From: an uncultured Gammaproteobacteria bacterium
Lineage (GTDB): Bacteria > Pseudomonadota > Gammaproteobacteria > JBBQDK01
NCBI GenBank assembly: GCA_963778665.1
Contig: CAVZVG010000003.1
Location: forward strand, 128,813 to 192,812
Reading direction: 5' to 3'
Length of the DNA: 64,000 bases
In this document: positions 668 through 10,277 of the stretch, piece by piece
Position numbering within the stretch: position 1 is the stretch's first letter
How the letters are laid out: the number at the start of each line of letters is the position of its first letter
Position numbers and translations under genes: made by a program
Notes under the pieces: model-generated
Databases searched by the model: none
What the model was told of the DNA's origin: nothing
The model's input: the letters and a program-made list of their open reading frames with translations, nothing else

Positions 668-1246
668 ATGCCAGACAGCCAGTTACCCGACACGCCGGCG
701 CAATCCAGCCCGGACAGCATCCTGGACTTCTGGTTCTCGGCGCCGGTCCGCCCGCTGTGGTTCAAGTCCACGCCTGAATTCGATGCCGAGCTGCGCCGAC
801 GCTATGCGGATACCTGGCAGGCGGCGCGGCGCGGCGAACTCGGCGCGTGGGAAAGCTCGGCAAACGGCGCGCTGGCACTGGTGATCGTGCTCGATCAGTT
901 TCCCCTCAACATGTATCGCGACCGCCCCGAGGCCTTCGCCACCGAGGCCGCCTCGCGCGATGTAGCGCGCCGCGCCATCGCGCACGGTTTCGATACCGGC
1001 CTCGACAACAGCCGACGGGTCTTTTTGTATTTGCCCTTCATGCACAGCGAAGATCCCGCCGATCAGGATTACTCGGTGCAACTGTTCGCGCAGCCGGGCA
1101 TGGAAGACACGCTCAAATGGGCGCGGCATCATCGCGACATCGTGCGGCGCTTCGGCCGCTTTCCGCATCGCAATGCCGTGCTGGGCCGCGCCAGCAGTGC
1201 CGCGGAAATCGCCTATCTGGAATCCGAGGCGGCGTTCCATGGCTGA
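668..1246 (+). CDS. DUF924 family protein
   Basis: 192 aa. Motifs LDQFPLNMYR, YLPFMHSE and RFGRFPHRNAVLGR match my recollection of the DUF924 family. Stop overlaps the sprT start (ATGGCTGA). Confidence 0.55.
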   Translation: MPDSQLPDTPAQSSPDSILDFWFSAPVRPLWFKSTPEFDAELRRRYADTWQAARRGELGAWESSANGALALVIVLDQFPLNMYRDRPEAFATEAASRDVARRAIAHGFDTGLDNSRRVFLYLPFMHSEDPADQDYSVQLFAQPGMEDTLKWARHHRDIVRRFGRFPHRNAVLGRASSAAEIAYLESEAAFHG

Positions 1247-1829
1247 CTGCGGATCATCAGGCGGCACGGGGTTTGTGCTGTCAGCCGTGGAAAAACTCCG
1301 TCCCATCGATGCCGGCCGACAGCAGCAGGTCATCGCCTACACGCAGGCCTGCCTGGCACGCGCCGCCGCGCTGTACGGGCGCAAACTGCCATCGGTGGAG
1401 GTGCTGTTCGATCTGCGCGGTCAGGCCGCCGGCCAGTTCCGCTGGACGGCGCGGACCCGGCAATGCGTGATTCGCTACAACCCGTGGGTGTTCGCCGCCG
1501 ACTTCGAGCATCATCTGCACGACACCGTGGTGCATGAAGTCGCGCACTACCTCGTGTATCGCCTGCACGGTGCGCGTACCCGACCGCATGGCGCGGAATG
1601 GCGACGCGTGATGCAGGACTTCGGTATCAAACCCAAAGCCACCGGCCGTTACACGCTGCATGGCGTGCCTGTGCGGCGCCAGCAGCGGCACGCCTACCGC
1701 TGCGCGTGTCGCACCCACGAACTCACCAGCACCCGCCATAACCGTCAGCAGCAGGGCAGTGCGTATGTCTGCCGCCGCTGCGGCGAGCCCTTGCAGGCCG
1801 TTGCTTCGCCGGAGGCTCAGTGTGGTTAA
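1239..1829 (+). CDS. sprT: SprT family zinc metalloprotease
   Basis: HEVAH zinc motif; HGAEW motif; C-terminal zinc ribbon YRCACRTHELTSTRHNR...YVCRRCGEPL, collinear with the E. coli SprT C-terminus. ATG at 1239 overlaps the upstream stop; the ORF-track start 1173 is an upstream extension. Confidence 0.8.
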   Translation: MADCGSSGGTGFVLSAVEKLRPIDAGRQQQVIAYTQACLARAAALYGRKLPSVEVLFDLRGQAAGQFRWTARTRQCVIRYNPWVFAADFEHHLHDTVVHEVAHYLVYRLHGARTRPHGAEWRRVMQDFGIKPKATGRYTLHGVPVRRQQRHAYRCACRTHELTSTRHNRQQQGSAYVCRRCGEPLQAVASPEAQCG

Positions 1830-1844
1830 CAAAAAATGTTCTTG

Positions 1845-2075
1845 CCACGGAGGCGCAGAGCTCACAGAGAGGATGAAAACTGTTTTTCAGTGCCTAAGAG
1901 CGCCTAACAAAAAGCCATCACCACGGAGGACACGGAGAAATTTTATCAAAAGCATTCACCAGGGGGAATACGGGGAGCACGGGGGTAACCGCTGATAACC
2001 CCGTGCTCCCCGTGGTAATCGCTTTTCTGCATTGACAAAAAAATCTCCGTGTCCTCCGTGGTGAATGCTTTAAAG
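1845..2075. repeat. composite palindromic repeat element (family A, CACCACGGAGGACACGGAGA inverted repeats with an inner GC hairpin)
   Basis: Outer inverted repeats at 1918-1937 and 2044-2063 plus AAAGCATTCACC/GGTGAATGCTTT. Inner hairpin CGGGGAGCACGGGGG...CCCCGTGCTCCCCG. Related copies at 5558-5625, 20385-20650 and 46888-46988. Confidence 0.6.
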
Positions 2076-2104
2076 AAAAATCATGCGGCCGGCAATTCAT
2101 AAGA

Positions 2105-2515
2105 TCATCCGCTCATGATGCGCGGCCAGCGGTCATGCACCGCATCGGCCATTTCGGGTTCCACCGTCACCACATAGATGCGCCGTTCGTGCGCGTCGCG
2201 CGCGACCAGTCCCTGAATCCATTGTCCCCTGGTCAAGTCGTACCAATGCGAATGACCTTCCAGATCCTTCTCCATGAAACTCTTGACGGGAATCTTCACC
2301 GGGATCGGAAACCACTTGTCCCAACGGCCCGCATAGATCGAATCGAGCCGCGCCCAGCCGCCGAGCGGCAGTTGGCCGGCCTGCTCCCTGCGCCGTCCCC
2401 AGGGCAACAGTTCGACATGCCCGTCCTTGGCCTGCACCGGCAGCGCCGCCTTCGGATTGGGGAAATAGACACGGATGTCCGCGCCCTGATACGTGTAATA
2501 CACACCGCCACACAT
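2105..2515 (-). CDS. SOS-response-associated peptidase (SRAP/YedK)-like protein, short form
   Basis: Starts MCGG (Cys2, as in SRAP MCGR). C-terminal YVVTVEPEMADAVHDRWPRIM matches the SRAP motif ...IHDRMPVIL. Only 136 aa versus ~220 aa typical. Confidence 0.45.
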   Translation of the reverse strand: MCGGVYYTYQGADIRVYFPNPKAALPVQAKDGHVELLPWGRRREQAGQLPLGGWARLDSIYAGRWDKWFPIPVKIPVKSFMEKDLEGHSHWYDLTRGQWIQGLVARDAHERRIYVVTVEPEMADAVHDRWPRIMSG

Positions 2516-2542
2516 GCTGCAACCTGCTCGTGAATGCTTTCG

Positions 2543-2953
2543 TTACCGTCGCAATGCGGCGTCATCCCCAAGATTATCCTCCTGAAGTCGATAAACAATC
2601 TCCCCTCTCCCGCGAGCGGGAGAGGGGTCGGGGGAGAGGGCAAGGCGTATCCTTTCCAGCACAGAATCCATCTGCAGCATCACCTCGTTATTCCAGAACC
2701 GCAACAGGCGATAGCCTTGGGTACGCAGCCACGCATCCCGATACTGGTCATAGGCTATCCGCACGTTATGTTGCCCGCCGTCGAGTTCAATGATCAGTTG
2801 TCGCTCGACACTGACAAAATCGACGATGTAGCGGCCTATGGGTTTTTGCCGCTTGAATTTAACACCCATAAAGCGATGCGCTCGCAGGTGATACCATAAC
2901 CGCTGCTCGGCTATTGTTGGGTTGCTGCGCATGGTTTTGGCGTGGTGCAGCAT
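2543..2953 (-). CDS. DUF559 endonuclease-domain protein (Vsr-like fold)
   Basis: Motifs TIAEQRLWYHLRAHRFMGVKFKRQKPIGRYIVDFVSVERQLIIELDGGQH and LRFWNNEV. The 3' end reads into a GEG-type repeat element, as is common for DUF559 genes. Confidence 0.7.
   Translation of the reverse strand: MLHHAKTMRSNPTIAEQRLWYHLRAHRFMGVKFKRQKPIGRYIVDFVSVERQLIIELDGGQHNVRIAYDQYRDAWLRTQGYRLLRFWNNEVMLQMDSVLERIRLALSPDPSPARGRGEIVYRLQEDNLGDDAALRR
2600..2645. repeat. family E palindromic repeat (CCCCTCTCCCGCGAGCGGGAGAGGGG type)
   Basis: Perfect GC palindrome. Same family at 2990-3160, 5707-5747, 14944-15000 and 20345-20376. Confidence 0.6.
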
Positions 2954-2989
2954 AAGTTCCCTCTCTCTTTCAATTCTTAACCACCATCC

Positions 2990-3160
2990 TGTCCCCTCTC
3001 CCGGAGGGGAGGGTTCGGGAGAGGGCGAGACTCACGTGCGGCAGCAATTTAGTCCCTCTCCCAAGTGTTTTCCTTAATCAAGGAGGGGTAATTCACTCAA
3101 CCCCGCCAAGCACTCTCTATCCCATCCCTCTCCCCGCGCACAGGGAGAGGGTGCTTGCAG
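2990..3160. repeat. cluster of three family E palindromic repeats
   Basis: CCCCTCTCCCGGAGGGGAGGG, CCCTCTCCC...GGAGGGG and CCCTCTCCCCGCGCACAGGGAGAGGG hairpins. Confidence 0.55.
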
Positions 3161-3208
3161 AAGGCACCTTGGAGGGTAGCGCTTTCGTAAACCTGAAAAA
3201 ATCCATTG

Positions 3209-3349
3209 AACCGCCAAAGACGCCAAGAGCGCCAAGAACGCCAAGGAAGGCAAGCAATTTGACCCAGCTACCTTTTCACTGGTTGTGTGAATAGGCGGTT
3301 GGAAACATATATCAGATTCTCTTGGCGCTCTTGGCGTCCTTGGCGGTTT
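3209..3349. repeat. MITE-like element with TTGGCG-triplet inverted termini (family C)
   Basis: AACCGCCAAAGACGCCAAGAGCGCCAAGAACGCCAAGG at 3209-3246 is the inverted partner of TCTTGGCGCTCTTGGCGTCCTTGGCGGTT at 3321-3349. Related copies at 10388-10420, 20467-20545 and 58909-58925. Confidence 0.55.
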
Positions 3350-3352
3350 AAA

Positions 3353-4603
3353 CTAAATCGTTTGCCGGTGGCCGTGCGGTTTCCACGCCGGCGCGATGAC
3401 GTTGGGCATGGACGAGCGGTTCAACAGACGCGCCGGCGCCAGAGTGAATTCGCCGTAACGCTGGTTGATGCGATCCATCACGGCATGTACCGCGTGGGCG
3501 TTGCTCGGCGAGTCGTCGAACAGTTCGCGCTGTTGATCGGCGGGACGCGGATCGAGCGCGGTCACCTGTACCTGATGGATGCCGCGGCCCTGCCAGTAGT
3601 GATCGAGCACCGCCTCGCACAGCGTCATGATGGCGTGACTGTCGGCGCAGGGCAGCGCGGTTTTGAACTTGCCGCCGATCCAGCCGTCGTTGCAGCGCAG
3701 GCCGATGAAGAAGCGGCTTGCCTGCATGCCGTGACGGCGCAGCCGCGCGGCGACTTTTTCGCTCATGTGCAGAAGATAGGTGGTCAGTACTTCGCGCGCC
3801 CGCGTGTCGGGCGGCACCACCTTGCCGTGGCCGATGGATTTGGGCGCCGGGACATTGATGTGCATGGGCTCCGGGTCCTGTCCAAGACACATGTGCCAGA
3901 TGCGCCGGCCGGGATTGCCGAAGCGCTGCGCCAGCACGCTGATCGGCAGTTTCGCCATGTCGCCGCAGGTATACACGCCATGTTTGGCGAGAAAGCCGCC
4001 GATGCCCTCGGCGATGCCGCACAGTTCCGTGACGCGCGCCGTGCTCAGTCGCTCGCGCGCTTCCCACGGCGGAATGATCGTCAGCCCGTTGGGCTTGTCG
4101 AGTTTGGCGGCATATTTTGCCGTGGTCTTGTCGCCGCTTACGCCGATCGAACACAACACGCCGGAGGCGGCGAATACCACTTCCTTGACTTGCTGCGCGA
4201 TCTGCTCCGGCGTACCCAACAGGCGTTGGCAGCGCGTCACGTCGAGAAACGCCTCGTCCACCGAGAACACCTCGATATCCGGCGTGATGCTCTGCAGCGC
4301 ATCCATGATGGCGGTGGAGACCGCCGCATAACGCTGCGGCCGCGCCGGGCATTGGATGAGATCGGGACACAGCCGTCGCGCTTCCTTCAGGCGCATGCCG
4401 GTCTTGATGCCGTAGGCGCGCGCCTCGTACGAACAGGTGATGATGCAGGTGCCTTGCAGGCCGTTGGTCACGGCCACCGGGCGGCCGCGCCATTCGGGAC
4501 GGTCGCGCTGTTCGATGGACGCGAAGAAGGCGTTCATGTCGACGAGGATGATGGCGCGCGGCCAGATGTCAGGATGTGCGGCGGTCATGGCGGAGTCACT
4601 CAT
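3353..4603 (-). CDS. dinB: Y-family DNA polymerase (Pol IV/DinB-like), overlapping lexA
   Basis: N-terminal LVDMNAFFASIE and FSVDEAFLDV retain catalytic Asp/Asp-Glu equivalents of E. coli DinB D8/D103/E104, so this is not a catalytically dead ImuB. 416 aa. 8-nt overlap with the lexA stop. Alternative start at 4588. Confidence 0.75.
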   Translation of the reverse strand: MSDSAMTAAHPDIWPRAIILVDMNAFFASIEQRDRPEWRGRPVAVTNGLQGTCIITCSYEARAYGIKTGMRLKEARRLCPDLIQCPARPQRYAAVSTAIMDALQSITPDIEVFSVDEAFLDVTRCQRLLGTPEQIAQQVKEVVFAASGVLCSIGVSGDKTTAKYAAKLDKPNGLTIIPPWEARERLSTARVTELCGIAEGIGGFLAKHGVYTCGDMAKLPISVLAQRFGNPGRRIWHMCLGQDPEPMHINVPAPKSIGHGKVVPPDTRAREVLTTYLLHMSEKVAARLRRHGMQASRFFIGLRCNDGWIGGKFKTALPCADSHAIMTLCEAVLDHYWQGRGIHQVQVTALDPRPADQQRELFDDSPSNAHAVHAVMDRINQRYGEFTLAPARLLNRSSMPNVIAPAWKPHGHRQTI

Positions 4604-5186
4604 AGGTGCGCATCTGCCCGACCAGCACGCCCTGGATCTGCACGCGCTCGGCCGCGTAGCGCAGCGAAGTCATGGTGTGGTTGGCGGGAATCAATTCGAT
4701 CTCGCCGTTGCGGTGCTGCTTGATGTGTTTCAAGGTCACTTCGTCGTTGTCGATGAGTGCCACCACGACCTCGCCGTCGCGCGCGGCGTCGCGCTTTTCG
4801 ATGACCACCAGGTCGCCGTCGAGAATGCCCGCCTCGATCATCGACTCGCCGCTGACCTGCAAGACGAAGCGCTTCGGTCCATTGAACAGCGCATTGATGT
4901 CCAGCGACTGCTGATCGGCGATCGCCTCGATCGGCCGACCCGCCGCGATGCGTCCGAGCAAGGGCAGGGCATCCGCCGCGGGCGGCGTCGCGAGGCCGAT
5001 GCCGCGCCAGCCACGCTGCCGTTGCACATAACCCTTGTCGGTCAGCGACTGGATGTAACGATGCACCGTGCCCTTGGACTGCACGCCCACCGCCGCGCCG
5101 ATTTCGGTCAGCGTCGGGCCGTGTTCGTGGTGGTCGAGATGAACGCGGACAAAATCCAGGATGCGGCTTTCCAGTGTCGTGAGCAT
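4596..5186 (-). CDS. lexA: LexA repressor (S24 peptidase)
   Basis: HTH N-domain (MLTTLESRILDFVR...) and C-terminal S24 domain with the Ser (GESM) and Lys (VTLKHI) dyad context. GGAG Shine-Dalgarno 7 nt upstream of ATG 5186; the ORF-track start 5216 is an extension. Confidence 0.8.
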   Translation of the reverse strand: MLTTLESRILDFVRVHLDHHEHGPTLTEIGAAVGVQSKGTVHRYIQSLTDKGYVQRQRGWRGIGLATPPAADALPLLGRIAAGRPIEAIADQQSLDINALFNGPKRFVLQVSGESMIEAGILDGDLVVIEKRDAARDGEVVVALIDNDEVTLKHIKQHRNGEIELIPANHTMTSLRYAAERVQIQGVLVGQMRTYE

Positions 5187-5211
5187 GGGCAGGTCTCCAG
5201 GGTGTGAAAAC

Positions 5212-5240
5212 AGCATAGAGAACTTTTGGAGAACTTACAA
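5212..5240 (-). promoter_or_regulatory. candidate lexA promoter (-35 TTGTAA, 17-bp spacer, -10 TATGCT) with a direct-repeat operator GTTC-N7-GTTC in the spacer
   Basis: Minus-strand reading: TTGTAAGTTCtccaaaaGTTCtcTATGCT. The 8-bp direct repeat AAGTTCTC x2 sits ~34 bp upstream of the lexA ATG. No CTGT-N8-ACAG box is present. Confidence 0.35.
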
Positions 5241-5557: not shown

Positions 5558-5650
5558 GAGCGCCTGACAAACAGCGATCACCACGGAGGACACGGAGAAA
5601 TTTTATTAAAGGAACTCCTTAATTGCAAAGCCGTCATGCCCGCGAAGGCG
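5558..5650. repeat. family A half-element plus family G hairpin (CATGCCCGCGAAGGCGGGCATC)
   Basis: GCGCCTGACAAACAGCGATCACCACGGAGGACACGGAGAAATTTTAT is near-identical to 1890-1945. The hairpin recurs at 10340-10356 and 15072-15099. Together they create spurious ORF 5555..5797. Confidence 0.55.
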
Positions 5651-8840: not shown

Positions 8841-10277
8841 ATGCCGAACCAGCCACGCGACGCCGGCATCCCTCCCGTCAGGCTTGCCGTGGTCGGTCAC
8901 ACCAATGCCGGCAAAACCTCCTTGATTCGTACCCTGCTGCGTGACGATCGGTTCGGCAAGATCGATGACGCCGCCGGCACGACGCGGCATGTGGAAAGCT
9001 CGGCGATTTTTGCCGGCGACGATGCGGTGTTGAATCTGTTCGACACACCCGGCTTCGAGGATTCCAGTGCCTTGTTGCAGAGGCTGGAAGCACTGGGGAA
9101 AACCGTTCCGGTCAAAGCGCCGGCGGATTTGTTGCGCGAGTTCATCGCGCGGGCGGCCGATTACCCCGACTTCGCGCAGGAAACCAAGGTGCTGCGGCAG
9201 GCGCTCAACAGCGATGTGCTGCTGTATATCATCGATGTGCGCGAACCCCTGTTGGGCAAGTATCGCGATGAAGTCGAAATCCTCGGCAAGGCCGGCAAGC
9301 CGATCGTTCCGGTGTTCAATTTCATCGCCGGCAACAGCGATGCCCTGGCGCGCTGGCGCGAACAGATGGCGCATTTCAATCTGCATGCGGCCTTGGAATT
9401 CGATACCGTCGCATTCGATTTCGAGGCCGAGAAGCGCCTCTACCAGAAGCTGCAAAGCCTGTACGAGAAACGTTACGATGCGCTGCAGGCGCTCATCGAC
9501 TATCGCCAGGAGGTGTGGGAAAACCTGCGGCATGCCGCCGCGCAGCGCATCTTTCAGTTGCTCGCCGAGGTCAGTTGTTATCGACGCGAAGTGAGCGGCA
9601 AGGGCGCCATCGCGCGCGTCGACATCGAATCAATGCAGGACTTCGTGCGCAGCGCGGAACAGCGCGCCTTGCGGGATCTGCTGGCGATATTCGCGTTTAC
9701 GCAGTTGGATGTCGACCTGCAGCAACTGCCCGTGAGCGACGGACAATGGGAGCTGGATATCTTCTCGCCCCGTGCCTTGAAGGTCTTCGGGCTGAACGCC
9801 GGCGCGACCGCGTTGAAGGGCGCCGCCGCCGGAGCGGGCGTCGACCTGATGGTCGGCGGTTTGAGTCTCGGTGCGGCAACACTGTTAGGTGCGGCGCTGG
9901 GTGCGGGATGGGCGACCGTGCGACGCTATGAACAGGAGTTGAAGGCCGCCTGGCGCGGGCACAAATGGTTGTGTGTGGATGACAACACGATCAGCCTGCT
10001 CTACCTCAGACAACGCCAGCTGTTGCAGACGCTGACGCAGCGCGGGCATGCCGCCCGCAACAAACTGCAACTCGCCGACGCCGCGGATCGCGCGCTGCCC
10101 AAGCGCTGGTCCAGGGTCGTCACCGTGCTGCGCCAGAATCCCGAATGGCAACAGGCCGCAGCGGGCGATCCGGAATATCAGCAAATGCAGACGCAGGTCG
10201 TGGAGTGGTTGTTGAGTGATGGAGATACCGCTTCGGGAAGTTCCGATGACACAGTGGTCGGTAATCAAGACTACTAA
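8841..10277 (+). CDS. membrane-associated GTPase (DUF3482-like; MMR_HSR1-type G domain)
   Basis: G1 GHTNAGKTS; G3 DTPGFED. C-terminal Gly/Ala-rich hydrophobic segment GLSLGAATLLGAALGAGWA. Confidence 0.55.
   Translation: MPNQPRDAGIPPVRLAVVGHTNAGKTSLIRTLLRDDRFGKIDDAAGTTRHVESSAIFAGDDAVLNLFDTPGFEDSSALLQRLEALGKTVPVKAPADLLREFIARAADYPDFAQETKVLRQALNSDVLLYIIDVREPLLGKYRDEVEILGKAGKPIVPVFNFIAGNSDALARWREQMAHFNLHAALEFDTVAFDFEAEKRLYQKLQSLYEKRYDALQALIDYRQEVWENLRHAAAQRIFQLLAEVSCYRREVSGKGAIARVDIESMQDFVRSAEQRALRDLLAIFAFTQLDVDLQQLPVSDGQWELDIFSPRALKVFGLNAGATALKGAAAGAGVDLMVGGLSLGAATLLGAALGAGWATVRRYEQELKAAWRGHKWLCVDDNTISLLYLRQRQLLQTLTQRGHAARNKLQLADAADRALPKRWSRVVTVLRQNPEWQQAAAGDPEYQQMQTQVVEWLLSDGDTASGSSDDTVVGNQDY

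What the first reader, a model, noticed from the sequence alone, without database searches (positions are those of the whole stretch)
1239..5240. Neighbourhood of DNA-protein-crosslink and DNA-damage genes: sprT, SRAP-like, DUF559, lexA-dinB
Within 4 kb lie an E. coli-type SprT (Spartan-like metalloprotease with zinc ribbon), a short MCG-initiated SRAP/YedK-like protein (abasic-site crosslinking), a DUF559 Vsr-fold endonuclease, and a LexA repressor overlapping a catalytically competent Y-family polymerase. Clustering of SprT and SRAP with the SOS regulator is unusual; in E. coli they are dispersed. It suggests a co-regulated DPC and lesion-tolerance island. The genes are separated by dense repeat elements.
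Basis: partly seen in the sequence, partly recalled or inferred. Interest (0 to 1): 0.6.

Follow-up and report, generated by a model that had tools for sequence, protein, structure and literature searches.

The report
SOS operon: translesion polymerase plus mini-SRAP
The real unit here is a DNA-damage-induced operon (LexA repressor, a translesion DNA polymerase and an unannotated half-size relative of the abasic-site-shielding SRAP/YedK proteins) that is conserved in hundreds of uncultured gammaproteobacteria, whereas the neighbouring sprT and DUF559 genes are chance neighbours or insertions, so there is no conserved DNA-protein-crosslink repair island.

Summary
The 136-aa MCG ORF (2105-2515, minus strand) fails every direct profile search. 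It is nevertheless a truncated SRAP-superfamily protein. Divergent members of its family reach Pfam SRAP (one above the gathering score). An SRAP HMM I built scores family members far above shuffled controls. A pLDDT-93 model matches only YedK in the PDB.

Only part of the proposed island is conserved. In every informative locus (77 of 80 species genomes) the Y-family polymerase lies directly upstream of the mini-SRAP on the same strand. This pair is always preceded by one of two arrangements: an adjacent lexA with a GTTCTC-N5-GTTCTC operator, as here at 5218-5234, or an operator alone, either that box or the canonical CTGT-N8-ACAG box. sprT is adjacent in 0 of 80 loci. Synteny with a genome about 90% identical in DNA ends 10 nt after the mini-SRAP stop codon. 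DUF559 is an insertion seen in 4 of 80 loci. The operator does not recur near sprT or the mini-SRAP gene.

SRAP-DinB-LexA operons were described in 2013, and a PolY plus SRAP-like module was predicted computationally in 2026. This locus is therefore a new member of a known kind.

The parts
5212..5240 (-). Promoter and LexA operator of the operon. On the minus strand: -35 TTGTAA (5240-5235), direct repeat GTTCTC-CAAAA-GTTCTC (5234-5218) filling the spacer, -10 TATGCT (5217-5212).
   Evidence: This is the only exact GTTC-N7-GTTC / GTTCTC-N5-GTTCTC site in 64 kb. The same box sits in the same position upstream of lexA in 20 of 26 related loci, often with an inverted GAGAAC-N5-GAGAAC copy downstream. 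Sequence read.
4596..5186 (-). lexA-type repressor (196 aa from the likely start MLTTLESR; the ORF extends to 5216). Winged HTH plus S24 peptidase.
   Evidence: TIGR00498 lexA 153.1 bits, above the cut-off of 110.95. Pfam LexA_DNA_bind and Peptidase_S24. The Ala-Gly cleavage site (GRIAAGRP), Ser (VSGESM) and Lys (TLKHIK) are visible in the translation. Its stop overlaps the polymerase start by 8 nt.
3353..4603 (-). Y-family translesion DNA polymerase, 416 aa, catalytically competent. GeoPolY-/UmuC-like rather than a DinB orthologue.
   Evidence: Pfam IMS E=1.1e-45 and IMS_C E=2.3e-12; weak DUF4113 hit E=0.0083 at aa 372-392. Below all Pol IV cut-offs. Best BLASTP match is Geobacter GeoPolY-like AAR33378 (36% identity, 227 bits), against 103 bits for E. 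coli UmuC.
2954..3352 (.). REP-like repeat region between the polymerase and DUF559: GGGAGAGGG/CCCTCTCCC hairpins, and inverted repeat 3206-3237 / 3320-3351.
   Evidence: No equivalent stretch exists in most related loci, where the pol to mini-SRAP gap is 2-30 nt.
2543..2953 (-). DUF559 (Vsr-fold endonuclease-like) gene, inserted into the operon on the same strand, 27 nt upstream of the mini-SRAP start.
   Evidence: Pfam DUF559 E=1.6e-40. Found between pol and mini-SRAP only here and in L006, L010 and L039. Its 3' end runs into a REP hairpin at 2602-2627.
2105..2515 (-). Mini-SRAP: 136-aa truncated SRAP-superfamily protein (MCGG...). Cys2, Glu82 and His127 are invariant within its clade.
   Evidence: Family sizes. 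Invariant residues. SRAP link: 12 of 71 members hit PF02586, and P0248 scores 28.7 bits against a gathering score of 27.1. SRAP HMM against shuffled controls. hhalign P=0.009, aligning E82 with E105 and H127 with H160. AF2 model pLDDT 93.3. Foldseek top hits YedK 6kbu/2icu, probability 1.00, TM 0.63/0.55. Homologous to the published SRAP-like subunit QDU13703, hhalign 97.7%, E=2e-12.
1898..2079 (.). Palindromic MITE-like repeat element at the synteny breakpoint downstream of the operon. Its first 60 nt recur as a direct repeat (88% identity) at 5558-5617, upstream of the operon.
   Evidence: D1, I1, I3, I10. The breakpoint relative to L006 is at window position 2095.
1239..1829 (+). sprT (SprT-like zinc metalloprotease with zinc ribbon). 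It is a neighbour and not part of the module. It is convergent to the operon and overlaps the DUF924 stop (1244-1246) by 8 nt.
   Evidence: for identity. Adjacent in 0 of 80 related loci. No operator nearby.
5558..5617 (.). Second copy of the 60-nt repeat, flanking the operon on the promoter side.
   Evidence: D1: 1898-1957 and 5558-5617, 88% identity.

Best explanation
The functional unit is an SOS-controlled operon on the minus strand: a LexA-type repressor, then a Y-family translesion polymerase, then a 136-aa mini-SRAP.

Shown here:
- The polymerase and mini-SRAP genes form an obligate pair across hundreds of gammaproteobacterial species genomes.
- The pair always sits behind an SOS-type operator. 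Either its own lexA is adjacent with a GTTCTC-N5-GTTCTC box lying between -35 and -10, or there is an operator alone (that box or the host's canonical CTGT-N8-ACAG box).
- The LexA keeps its cleavage site and Ser/Lys dyad.
- The polymerase keeps its catalytic carboxylates.
- The mini-SRAP has the SRAP fold and, in this clade, an invariant N-terminal Cys2, Glu82 and His127.

Inferred mechanism:
- After DNA damage, RecA filaments trigger LexA self-cleavage and the operon is derepressed.
- The mini-SRAP acts as the dedicated small partner of the polymerase. This matches the PolY-SRAP-like(-RecA) assembly predicted by AlphaFold in PMC12926913.
- It probably recognises abasic sites in single-stranded DNA at stalled forks. 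It may capture them covalently through Cys2, as YedK and HMCES do, and so gate or direct bypass by the polymerase.

Other genes:
- DUF559 is a secondary insertion into the operon that came with REP-like repeats.
- sprT belongs to a separate, convergent DUF924-sprT unit and is adjacent only in this genome.
For: - Gene identities.
- Strict pol then mini-SRAP adjacency: same strand, gap mostly 2-30 nt, in 77 of 80 GTDB species loci. The other three lack upstream sequence. The same order is seen in Arenicellales contigs.
- Operators: GTTCTC-N5-GTTCTC is exact upstream of lexA in 20 of 26 loci that carry lexA. Among 41 loci without an adjacent lexA, 28 have a perfect TACTGTATATAATTACAGTA-type box and 10 have GAGAAC-N5-GAGAAC.
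- The window carries the box once, at 5218-5234 between TTGTAA and TATGCT.
- SRAP relationship.
- Invariant Cys2, Glu82 and His127 in 47 clade members.
- Homology to the published PolY-associated SRAP-like protein: hhalign 97.7%, E=2e-12. The module is described in PMC12926913.
- SRAP in DinB/LexA operons: PMC3765255.
- sprT excluded.
Against: - No expression, binding or biochemical data exist. Co-transcription in this window must pass about 400 nt of REP hairpins and the inserted DUF559 gene, and a weak terminator-like hairpin lies at 2627-2602.
- The window protein itself fails all direct SRAP profile searches.
- Across the wider family the catalytic triad is not conserved. Cys2 is present in 60 of 71 representatives, Glu82 in 41 of 71, and His127 in 27 of 71 (Tyr or Phe in 33). 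The full triad is present in only 23 of 71.
- SRAP Asn75 is replaced by an invariant Trp54.
- C-terminal fusion forms of the domain lack the N-terminal Cys.
- Nine related operons also carry a full-length SRAP directly downstream. The mini version may therefore be a non-catalytic adaptor and not a crosslinker.
- The polymerase matches GeoPolY-like better than the UmuC-like group named in the paper.
Confidence: 0.72

Rival explanations
1. sprT, the SRAP-like gene, DUF559 and lexA-pol form one co-regulated island for DNA-protein-crosslink repair and lesion tolerance. SprT would proteolyse the crosslinks made by the SRAP-like protein.
For: All the genes lie within 4 kb. There is a plausible biochemical logic, because SRAP makes DNA-protein crosslinks and SprT/Spartan-type proteases remove them.
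Against: - sprT is adjacent in 0 of 80 related loci.
- The closest genome (about 90% nt identity) has GST, a 132-aa ORF and an RND pump at that position. Homology ends 10 nt after the mini-SRAP stop.
- sprT is on the other strand and overlaps DUF924.
- There is no operator within 2 mismatches near sprT, DUF559 or the mini-SRAP gene.
- DUF559 is present in only 4 of 80 loci.
Confidence: 0.04
2. The mini-SRAP is a purely structural, non-catalytic accessory subunit of the polymerase, a functional analogue of UmuD', YolD or ImuB-C. It would form no covalent chemistry with abasic sites.
For: - Glu and His are lost in most family branches, and Cys2 is lost in about 15%.
- The domain occurs at the C-terminus of larger proteins, where an N-terminal Cys is impossible.
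- A full-length SRAP is co-encoded in 9 operons.
- PMC12926913 treats SRAP-like proteins as putative PolY-binding regulatory subunits.
Against: Cys2, Glu82 and His127 are invariant in all 47 aligned members of the window's clade despite 74-96% overall identity. Cys2 is kept in 85% of representatives clustered at 50% identity. That pattern is hard to explain for a mere scaffold.
Confidence: 0.3
3. The mini-SRAP is an independent YedK-like abasic-site shield. It would merely share SOS regulation with the polymerase, with no physical or functional coupling.
For: SRAP fold and catalytic residues. In Deferribacter, a family member sits next to an HTH-S24 repressor without any polymerase.
Against: Gene adjacency with the polymerase holds in every informative locus, with gaps of a few nucleotides. 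That is far tighter than shared regulation requires. High-confidence AlphaFold complexes are reported for homologous pairs in PMC12926913 (ipTM about 0.85).
Confidence: 0.15

Closest known systems
UmuC-SRAP-like(-RecA) putative mutasome module (PMC12926913, Nucleic Acids Res 2026; examples from Gimesia maris and Aeoliella mucimassa)
   Same: - A small SRAP-related protein (about 136-156 aa, starting MC) is encoded next to a Y-family polymerase.
- The window's family is homologous to the published SRAP-like subunit QDU13703 (hhalign 97.7%, E=2.3e-12).
- The polymerase carries a C-terminal extension with a weak DUF4113 (RecA-NT region) hit.
   Different: - The organisms here are uncultured sulfur-cycle Gammaproteobacteria, whereas the two examples I could read are from Planctomycetes.
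- The polymerase is closer to GeoPolY-like than to UmuC.
- The operon carries its own lexA with a GTTC-N7-GTTC operator.
- Some relatives add a full-length SRAP.
- The published description is computational only, and a complex was not modelled here.
Canonical SRAP proteins (E. coli YedK, human HMCES; Pfam PF02586) and their SOS operon contexts (PMC3765255)
   Same: - Same fold: Foldseek probability 1.00 and TM 0.63 to YedK 6kbu.
- N-terminal Cys2, with Glu and His aligned to YedK E105 and H160.
- WG, A-R-x-[DE]-[ST] and HDRxP motifs in the same order.
- Operon association with a Y-family polymerase and LexA.
   Different: - 136 aa against about 220 aa. It lacks the helical segment after the N-terminal strand and the C-terminal region of about 50 residues.
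- Asn75 is replaced by an invariant Trp.
- It is not detected by the Pfam or NCBIfam models.
- The triad is degenerate in many branches.
Geobacter sulfurreducens lexA-imuB-C-polY operon (GeoPolY-like group; PMC6511836)
   Same: - An autoregulated lexA heads an operon with an active Y-family polymerase of the same subgroup (36% identity) and one small accessory protein.
- The polymerases share a C-terminal PAW(K/R)P tail, seen in the Calditerrivibrio GeoPolY-like sequence.
   Different: - The accessory protein here is a mini-SRAP and not ImuB-C.
- The gene order differs: the accessory gene follows the polymerase.
- The operator sequence differs.
E. coli umuDC (Pol V) and B. subtilis yqjW-yqjX / uvrX-yolD
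   Same: A LexA-controlled Y-family polymerase is encoded with a small partner protein. The S24-peptidase gene overlaps the polymerase gene in the same way that umuD overlaps umuC.
   Different: The S24 protein here is a full LexA with a DNA-binding domain. The small partner has an unrelated fold (SRAP, against the folds of UmuD' and YolD).

Membership tests
SRAP superfamily (Pfam PF02586; YedK/HMCES) | Significant match to the SRAP sequence profile | tested here: inconclusive
   The window protein has no hit even at E=10. Within its family, 12 of 71 diverse members hit PF02586. P0248, a family member at E=8e-22, scores 28.7 bits against a gathering score of 27.1 (E=1.1e-6). With an SRAP HMM I built, 14 of 141 members score 8 bits or more, against 0 of 705 shuffled and 0 of 141 reversed sequences. 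hhalign profile-profile P=0.009.
SRAP superfamily (Pfam PF02586; YedK/HMCES) | SRAP fold | tested here: met
   AF2 model pLDDT 93.3, pTM 0.88. The Foldseek PDB top hits are YedK 6kbu_B (E=1.2e-3, probability 1.00, TMq 0.63) and 2icu_B (probability 1.00, TMq 0.55). The next hit has probability 0.30 and TM 0.23.
SRAP superfamily (Pfam PF02586; YedK/HMCES) | N-terminal Cys2 nucleophile plus catalytic Glu (YedK E105) and His (H160) | tested here: met
   Cys2, Glu82 and His127 are invariant in 47 clade members. E82 aligns to E105 and H127 to H160. Across the wider family, Cys2 is kept in 60 of 71, Glu in 41 of 71 and His in 27 of 71.
SRAP superfamily (Pfam PF02586; YedK/HMCES) | Full-length architecture (about 200-260 aa) including Asn75 and the C-terminal helical region | tested here: not met
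   The protein is 136 aa. The family match to the SRAP profile spans only positions 53-173 of 214. The Asn75 position is an invariant Trp54.
SRAP superfamily (Pfam PF02586; YedK/HMCES) | Covalent thiazolidine crosslink to abasic sites in single-stranded DNA | not testable with these tools
   Needs purified protein and abasic-site DNA.
PolY-SRAP-like(-RecA) module of PMC12926913 | Small protein homologous to the published SRAP-like subunit | tested here: met
   hhalign of A2 against Gimesia maris QDU13703: probability 97.7%, E=2.3e-12 over 96 columns.
PolY-SRAP-like(-RecA) module of PMC12926913 | Encoded directly beside a Y-family polymerase | tested here: met
   77 of 80 loci. The other three are truncated upstream.
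PolY-SRAP-like(-RecA) module of PMC12926913 | Polymerase of the 'UmuC-like' group with a RecA-NT motif | tested here: inconclusive
   The best BLASTP match is GeoPolY-like (227 bits). The 190-aa N-terminal fragment of the Gimesia UmuC-like polymerase gives 104 bits, and E. coli UmuC gives 103 bits. The only sign of the RecA-NT region is a weak DUF4113 hit, E=0.0083.
PolY-SRAP-like(-RecA) module of PMC12926913 | Physical complex of polymerase, SRAP-like protein and RecA | not testable with these tools
   No multimer prediction is available here. The paper reports ipTM of about 0.85 for its examples.
LexA repressor | LexA winged-HTH plus S24 peptidase with Ala-Gly cleavage site and Ser/Lys dyad | tested here: met
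   TIGR00498 153.1 bits, above the cut-off of 110.95. Pfam domains present. GRIAAGRP, VSGESM and TLKHIK are visible in the translation.
LexA repressor | Conserved operator in its own promoter (autoregulation) | tested here: met
   GTTCTC-N5-GTTCTC lies between -35 and -10 here and in 20 of 26 orthologous promoters. Binding itself was not tested.
DinB / DNA polymerase IV orthologue | Score above an NCBIfam Pol IV equivalog cut-off | tested here: not met
   The best is NF002848 at 260 bits against a cut-off of 381. NF002677 gives 234 against 256. It is a Y-family (IMS) polymerase but not a DinB orthologue.
SprT family metalloprotease | SprT-like domain with HExxH plus C-terminal zinc ribbon | tested here: met
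   PF10263 E=4.9e-15 and PF17283 E=1.5e-6. HEVAH is present in the sequence. The E. coli-type equivalog NF003421 gives 128.8 bits, below its cut-off of 175.
   sprT is adjacent in 0 of 80 loci and DUF559 lies between pol and mini-SRAP in 4 of 80. Synteny with L006 ends at window 2095. The operator is unique to the lexA promoter.

The most novel reading that the evidence does not exclude
The mini-SRAP could be a catalytically active subunit tethered to the polymerase. In this reading it covalently captures abasic sites in single-stranded DNA through Cys2 and hands them to, or licenses, its dedicated translesion polymerase. That would make it a covalent lesion-sensor subunit of a bacterial mutasome, with a role distinct from the full-length SRAP that some of these operons also encode. 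It would be the reverse of the eukaryotic picture, where HMCES shields abasic sites from translesion synthesis.
Probability: 0.2. Interest if true: 0.7.

Novelty: new member of a known kind. Interest (0 to 1): 0.4.

Why it matters
SRAP proteins such as HMCES and YedK protect abasic sites in single-stranded DNA, and they are thought to act in opposition to mutagenic translesion synthesis. Here a stripped-down SRAP is genetically coupled to a translesion polymerase under SOS control in at least 277 species-level genomes, yet it is invisible to Pfam and NCBIfam and is annotated everywhere as a hypothetical protein.

This gives a compact two-protein system for testing how abasic-site capture and lesion bypass are coordinated. 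It also extends a module so far predicted only computationally (examples seen here are from Planctomycetes) to a large environmental gammaproteobacterial group. In that group it operates under two alternative regulatory arrangements.

For the scan itself, the result shows that the apparent DPC island is a coincidence of neighbourhood plus a repeat-associated insertion.

Tried and rejected
- Direct profile searches of the 136-aa protein gave nothing or ankyrin noise: Pfam at E=10, NCBIfam, PHROGs and phmmer against PDB.
- HMMs of the family (A1, A2) searched against PDB sequences gave only spurious WG-repeat hits to BLIP-II and PsaD, and no SRAP.
- hhalign of the family against a single YedK sequence aligned only the VT...HDRxP segment, at E of about 0.05.
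- BLASTP of P0248 against YedK was not significant.
- The first AF2 model, from a shallow alignment, had pLDDT 77.8 and gave only a weak YedK hit (E=0.12). Adding the Deferribacter branch to the alignment resolved this.
- The exact-sequence look-up of the window protein found nothing on record.
- The search for related loci with the diverse alignment A2 failed for lack of a conserved stretch.
- The viral-contig scan for YedK returned only sequences 86-90% identical to it, which were useless for building a profile.
- The canonical gammaproteobacterial box CTGT-N8-ACAG is absent from the window.
- I rejected the DinB orthologue label for the polymerase.
- I rejected the idea that the fused long proteins were polymerase fusions. 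Their N-terminal parts are membrane, coiled-coil and wHTH regions with no clear family.

Full report
**Observation**

- sprT (1239-1829, plus strand) matches Pfam SprT-like (E=4.9e-15) and its zinc ribbon (E=1.5e-6). Its start overlaps the stop codon of an upstream DUF924 gene (668-1246) by 8 nt.
- On the minus strand lie a lexA-type repressor, a Y-family polymerase, a DUF559 gene and a 136-aa ORF.
- The repressor occupies ORF 4596-5216, with a likely start at 5186. TIGR00498 scores 153 bits, above its cut-off.
- The polymerase is 416 aa (3353-4603). IMS scores E=1.1e-45. The catalytic motifs DMNAFFAS and SVDEAF are intact.
- DUF559 is at 2543-2953 (E=1.6e-40).
- The 136-aa ORF starts MCGG (2105-2515).
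- The intergenic spaces are filled with REP/MITE-like repeats. These are concentrated at this locus within the window.

**The MCG protein**

It fails every direct search: Pfam and NCBIfam even at E=10, PHROGs, and PDB sequences.

It is, however, a real and very well conserved protein.

- More than 1054 clusters at 75-96% identity exist, all annotated as hypothetical and none with a Pfam domain.
- A profile search finds 534 representative clusters at 50% identity.
- Within its clade Cys2, Glu82 and His127 are invariant.

Four independent lines tie the family to SRAP.

1. When 71 diverse members are scanned individually, 12 hit PF02586 and no other family recurs more than three times. One member, P0248 from Deferribacter autotrophicus, passes the Pfam gathering score (28.7 against 27.1 bits, E=1.1e-6). 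The match runs collinearly from the WG motif to the HDRxP motif.
2. I built an HMM from nine canonical SRAPs found in related loci plus YedK. It scores 14 of 141 family members at 8 bits or more, against 0 of 705 shuffled and 0 of 141 reversed controls.
3. hhalign of the two alignments gives P=0.009 and places Glu82 on YedK Glu105 and His127 on His160.
4. After the alignment was deepened, AlphaFold2 gave a pLDDT-93 model. Its only meaningful PDB matches are YedK structures (6kbu: probability 1.00, TM 0.63; 2icu: probability 1.00, TM 0.55). The next hit has probability 0.30.

The protein is about 60% of SRAP length. It lacks the N-proximal helical segment and the C-terminal 50 or so residues, and a tryptophan replaces Asn75. 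I call it a mini-SRAP.

**What is conserved around it**

A scan of one genome per GTDB species found close relatives in 277 genomes. All are uncultured Gammaproteobacteria, including Ectothiorhodospiraceae, Arenicellales, Acidiferrobacteraceae, Thioalkalispiraceae and Thiohalobacter.

- In 77 of the 80 loci retrieved, the Y-family polymerase lies directly upstream on the same strand, usually 2-30 nt away. The three exceptions are truncated contigs.
- lexA precedes the polymerase in 23 of these loci and in the four Arenicellales contigs.
- sprT and DUF924 are never present in the 80 loci.
- DUF559 lies between the polymerase and the mini-SRAP only in the window, L006, L010 and L039.
- L006 is the closest genome (96% identical mini-SRAP, 89-91% nt identity). 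It is collinear with the window from position 9601 down to 2095, that is 10 nt past the mini-SRAP stop. After that it continues with unrelated genes: a GST-like ORF, a 132-aa ORF and an RND pump.
- The breakpoint coincides with a palindromic repeat element at 1898-2079. Its first 60 nt recur at 5558-5617 on the other side of the operon.

**Regulation**

Upstream of the window's lexA, the minus strand reads TTGTAA-GTTCTC-CAAAA-GTTCTC-TATGCT (5240-5212). This is a direct repeat filling a 17-nt spacer between a -35 and a -10 hexamer. It is the only such site in 64 kb. No copy within two mismatches lies near sprT, DUF559 or the mini-SRAP gene.

- The same box sits in the same place in 20 of 26 orthologous lexA promoters. 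It is often accompanied by an inverted GAGAAC-N5-GAGAAC copy before the start codon.
- Among 41 loci where the pol-miniSRAP pair has no adjacent lexA, 28 carry a perfect canonical gammaproteobacterial SOS box (TACTGTATATAATTACAGTA). Ten carry the GAGAAC-type box. The remaining three have partial or truncated sites.

The pair therefore appears to be SOS-controlled throughout this group, under one of two operator types. GTTC-N7-GTTC is the box known from Caulobacter and other Alphaproteobacteria (PMC9578287). Finding it in this gammaproteobacterial group is a side observation.

**The polymerase**

It is not a DinB orthologue, because all Pol IV equivalogs score below their cut-offs. Its best match among reference sequences is the GeoPolY-like group (Geobacter AAR33378: 36% identity, 227 bits). 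E. coli UmuC gives 103 bits. It shares a C-terminal PAW(K/R)P tail with the Calditerrivibrio GeoPolY-like enzyme. A weak DUF4113 hit lies in the region where RecA-NT motifs are found (PMC6511836).

**Comparison with what is known**

- Aravind and colleagues discovered and named SRAP because the genes sit in operons with UmuCD, ImuAB-DnaE2 or DinB, sometimes together with LexA (PMC3765255). SRAP next to the SOS regulator is therefore typical and not unusual.
[quoted passage not shown] It models UmuC-SRAP-like-RecA complexes with ipTM of about 0.85 (PMC12926913).
- Its example SRAP-like protein, Gimesia maris QDU13703 (156 aa, starting MCTG), is homologous to the window's family (hhalign 97.7%, E=2.3e-12).

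The module is thus a known, computationally predicted and experimentally untested kind. Several details appear not to have been described: the large gammaproteobacterial clade, the GeoPolY-like polymerase, the dedicated lexA with its GTTCTC repeat, and the co-encoded full-length SRAP in nine relatives.

**Mechanism**

Shown:
- The gene pair is obligate.
- SOS-type operators precede the pair in nearly every locus examined (38 of 41 without an adjacent lexA, most of those with one).
- The LexA cleavage site and Ser/Lys dyad are intact.
- The polymerase active site is intact.
- The mini-SRAP has the SRAP fold and, in this clade, the catalytic triad.

Inferred:
- DNA damage leads to RecA-stimulated LexA cleavage and derepression of the operon.
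- The mini-SRAP binds its polymerase as a small subunit.
- It recognises abasic sites in single-stranded DNA, perhaps forming a Cys2 thiazolidine adduct.

Whether the chemistry is retained is open. The triad is invariant in the window's clade. It is complete in only 23 of 71 family representatives. It is absent from versions of the domain fused to the C-terminus of other proteins. Some operons also carry a full SRAP, which would fit a division of labour or a purely adaptor role for the mini version.

In this window, transcription must also pass about 400 nt of REP hairpins and the inserted DUF559 gene, which ends 27 nt before the mini-SRAP start.

**Verdict**

The genes are real and the SRAP-like call was correct, but the 'DPC and lesion-tolerance island' is not. 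The conserved entity is an SOS operon made of lexA, a Y-family polymerase and a mini-SRAP. sprT is a chance neighbour across a repeat-marked rearrangement point, and DUF559 is a sporadic insertion. I rate it a new member of a known kind, of moderate interest. Its main value is as an abundant, unannotated and experimentally tractable pairing of an SRAP-type protein with a translesion polymerase.

Noticed in passing
L010 7426-8082; L026 7426-8082; L028 2571-3227; L034 533-1189; L039 1265-1921; L044 7561-8217; L064 8403-9053; L072 7419-8075; L075 7664-8319: In nine related genomes a canonical full-length SRAP (219-224 aa, MCGRF..., 26-33% identical to YedK) is encoded downstream of the mini-SRAP on the same strand, 8-17 nt away in six of them. 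This gives pol-miniSRAP-SRAP operons. The two SRAP forms therefore coexist and do not replace one another.
   Followed up: partly
Proteins P0155, P0181, P0195, P0253, P0255, P0265; P0130: The mini-SRAP domain also occurs at the C-terminus of 500-610-aa proteins. These have N-terminal transmembrane segments, a long coiled coil and a winged-helix-like region. In these fusions the Cys, Glu and His are often missing. No Pfam or PHROG family explains the N-terminal part.
   Followed up: partly
window 5218-5234; loci L001-L085 upstream of lexA or pol: There are two SOS operator types within one gammaproteobacterial group: the canonical CTGT-N8-ACAG box and an alphaproteobacterial-type direct repeat, GTTC(TC)-N-GTTC(TC). 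Variants occur, for example GTAC-N7-GTAC in L059 and a long palindrome in L018 and L029. This suggests a LexA lineage with altered specificity in these bacteria.
   Followed up: partly
window 1898-2079 and 5558-5617: A 60-nt direct repeat (88% identity) brackets the whole lexA-pol-DUF559-miniSRAP block. The downstream copy is part of a 180-nt palindromic MITE-like element that sits exactly at the synteny breakpoint with the closest genome, L006. This could be repeat-mediated rearrangement or mobility of the block.
   Followed up: partly
window 1239-1246: The sprT start codon (1239) overlaps the DUF924 stop (1244-1246) by 8 nt, which suggests a translationally coupled DUF924-sprT pair. Conservation of this pair elsewhere was not checked.
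   Followed up: no
L166 3229-4456 (Deferribacter autotrophicus VFJB01000001.1): A distant family member, the one that passes the Pfam SRAP threshold, sits directly after an HTH_3-Peptidase_S24 repressor gene with no polymerase nearby. In D. thermophilus (L167) neither partner is adjacent. The polymerase link is therefore not universal across the wider family.
   Followed up: partly
L008, L013, L014, L033, L035, L043, L045, L047, L052, L062, L077, L081-L083 downstream of the mini-SRAP: In at least 14 genomes the pol-miniSRAP pair is followed, on the opposite strand, by ORFs that read as pgsA and uvrC (named from their sequence only, without a profile search). This points to a stable chromosomal position for the pair in one subclade.
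   Followed up: no
L085 6521-7794: This locus carries a second lexA followed by a second, more distant Y-family polymerase (32% identity) about 1.6 kb downstream of the pol-miniSRAP pair.
   Followed up: no
L040, L045, L062 (record titles): Contigs carrying this typically gammaproteobacterial operon are filed under MAGs labelled Anaerolineae or Halobacteria archaeon. This is probably mis-binning or mislabelling in the public records.
   Followed up: no
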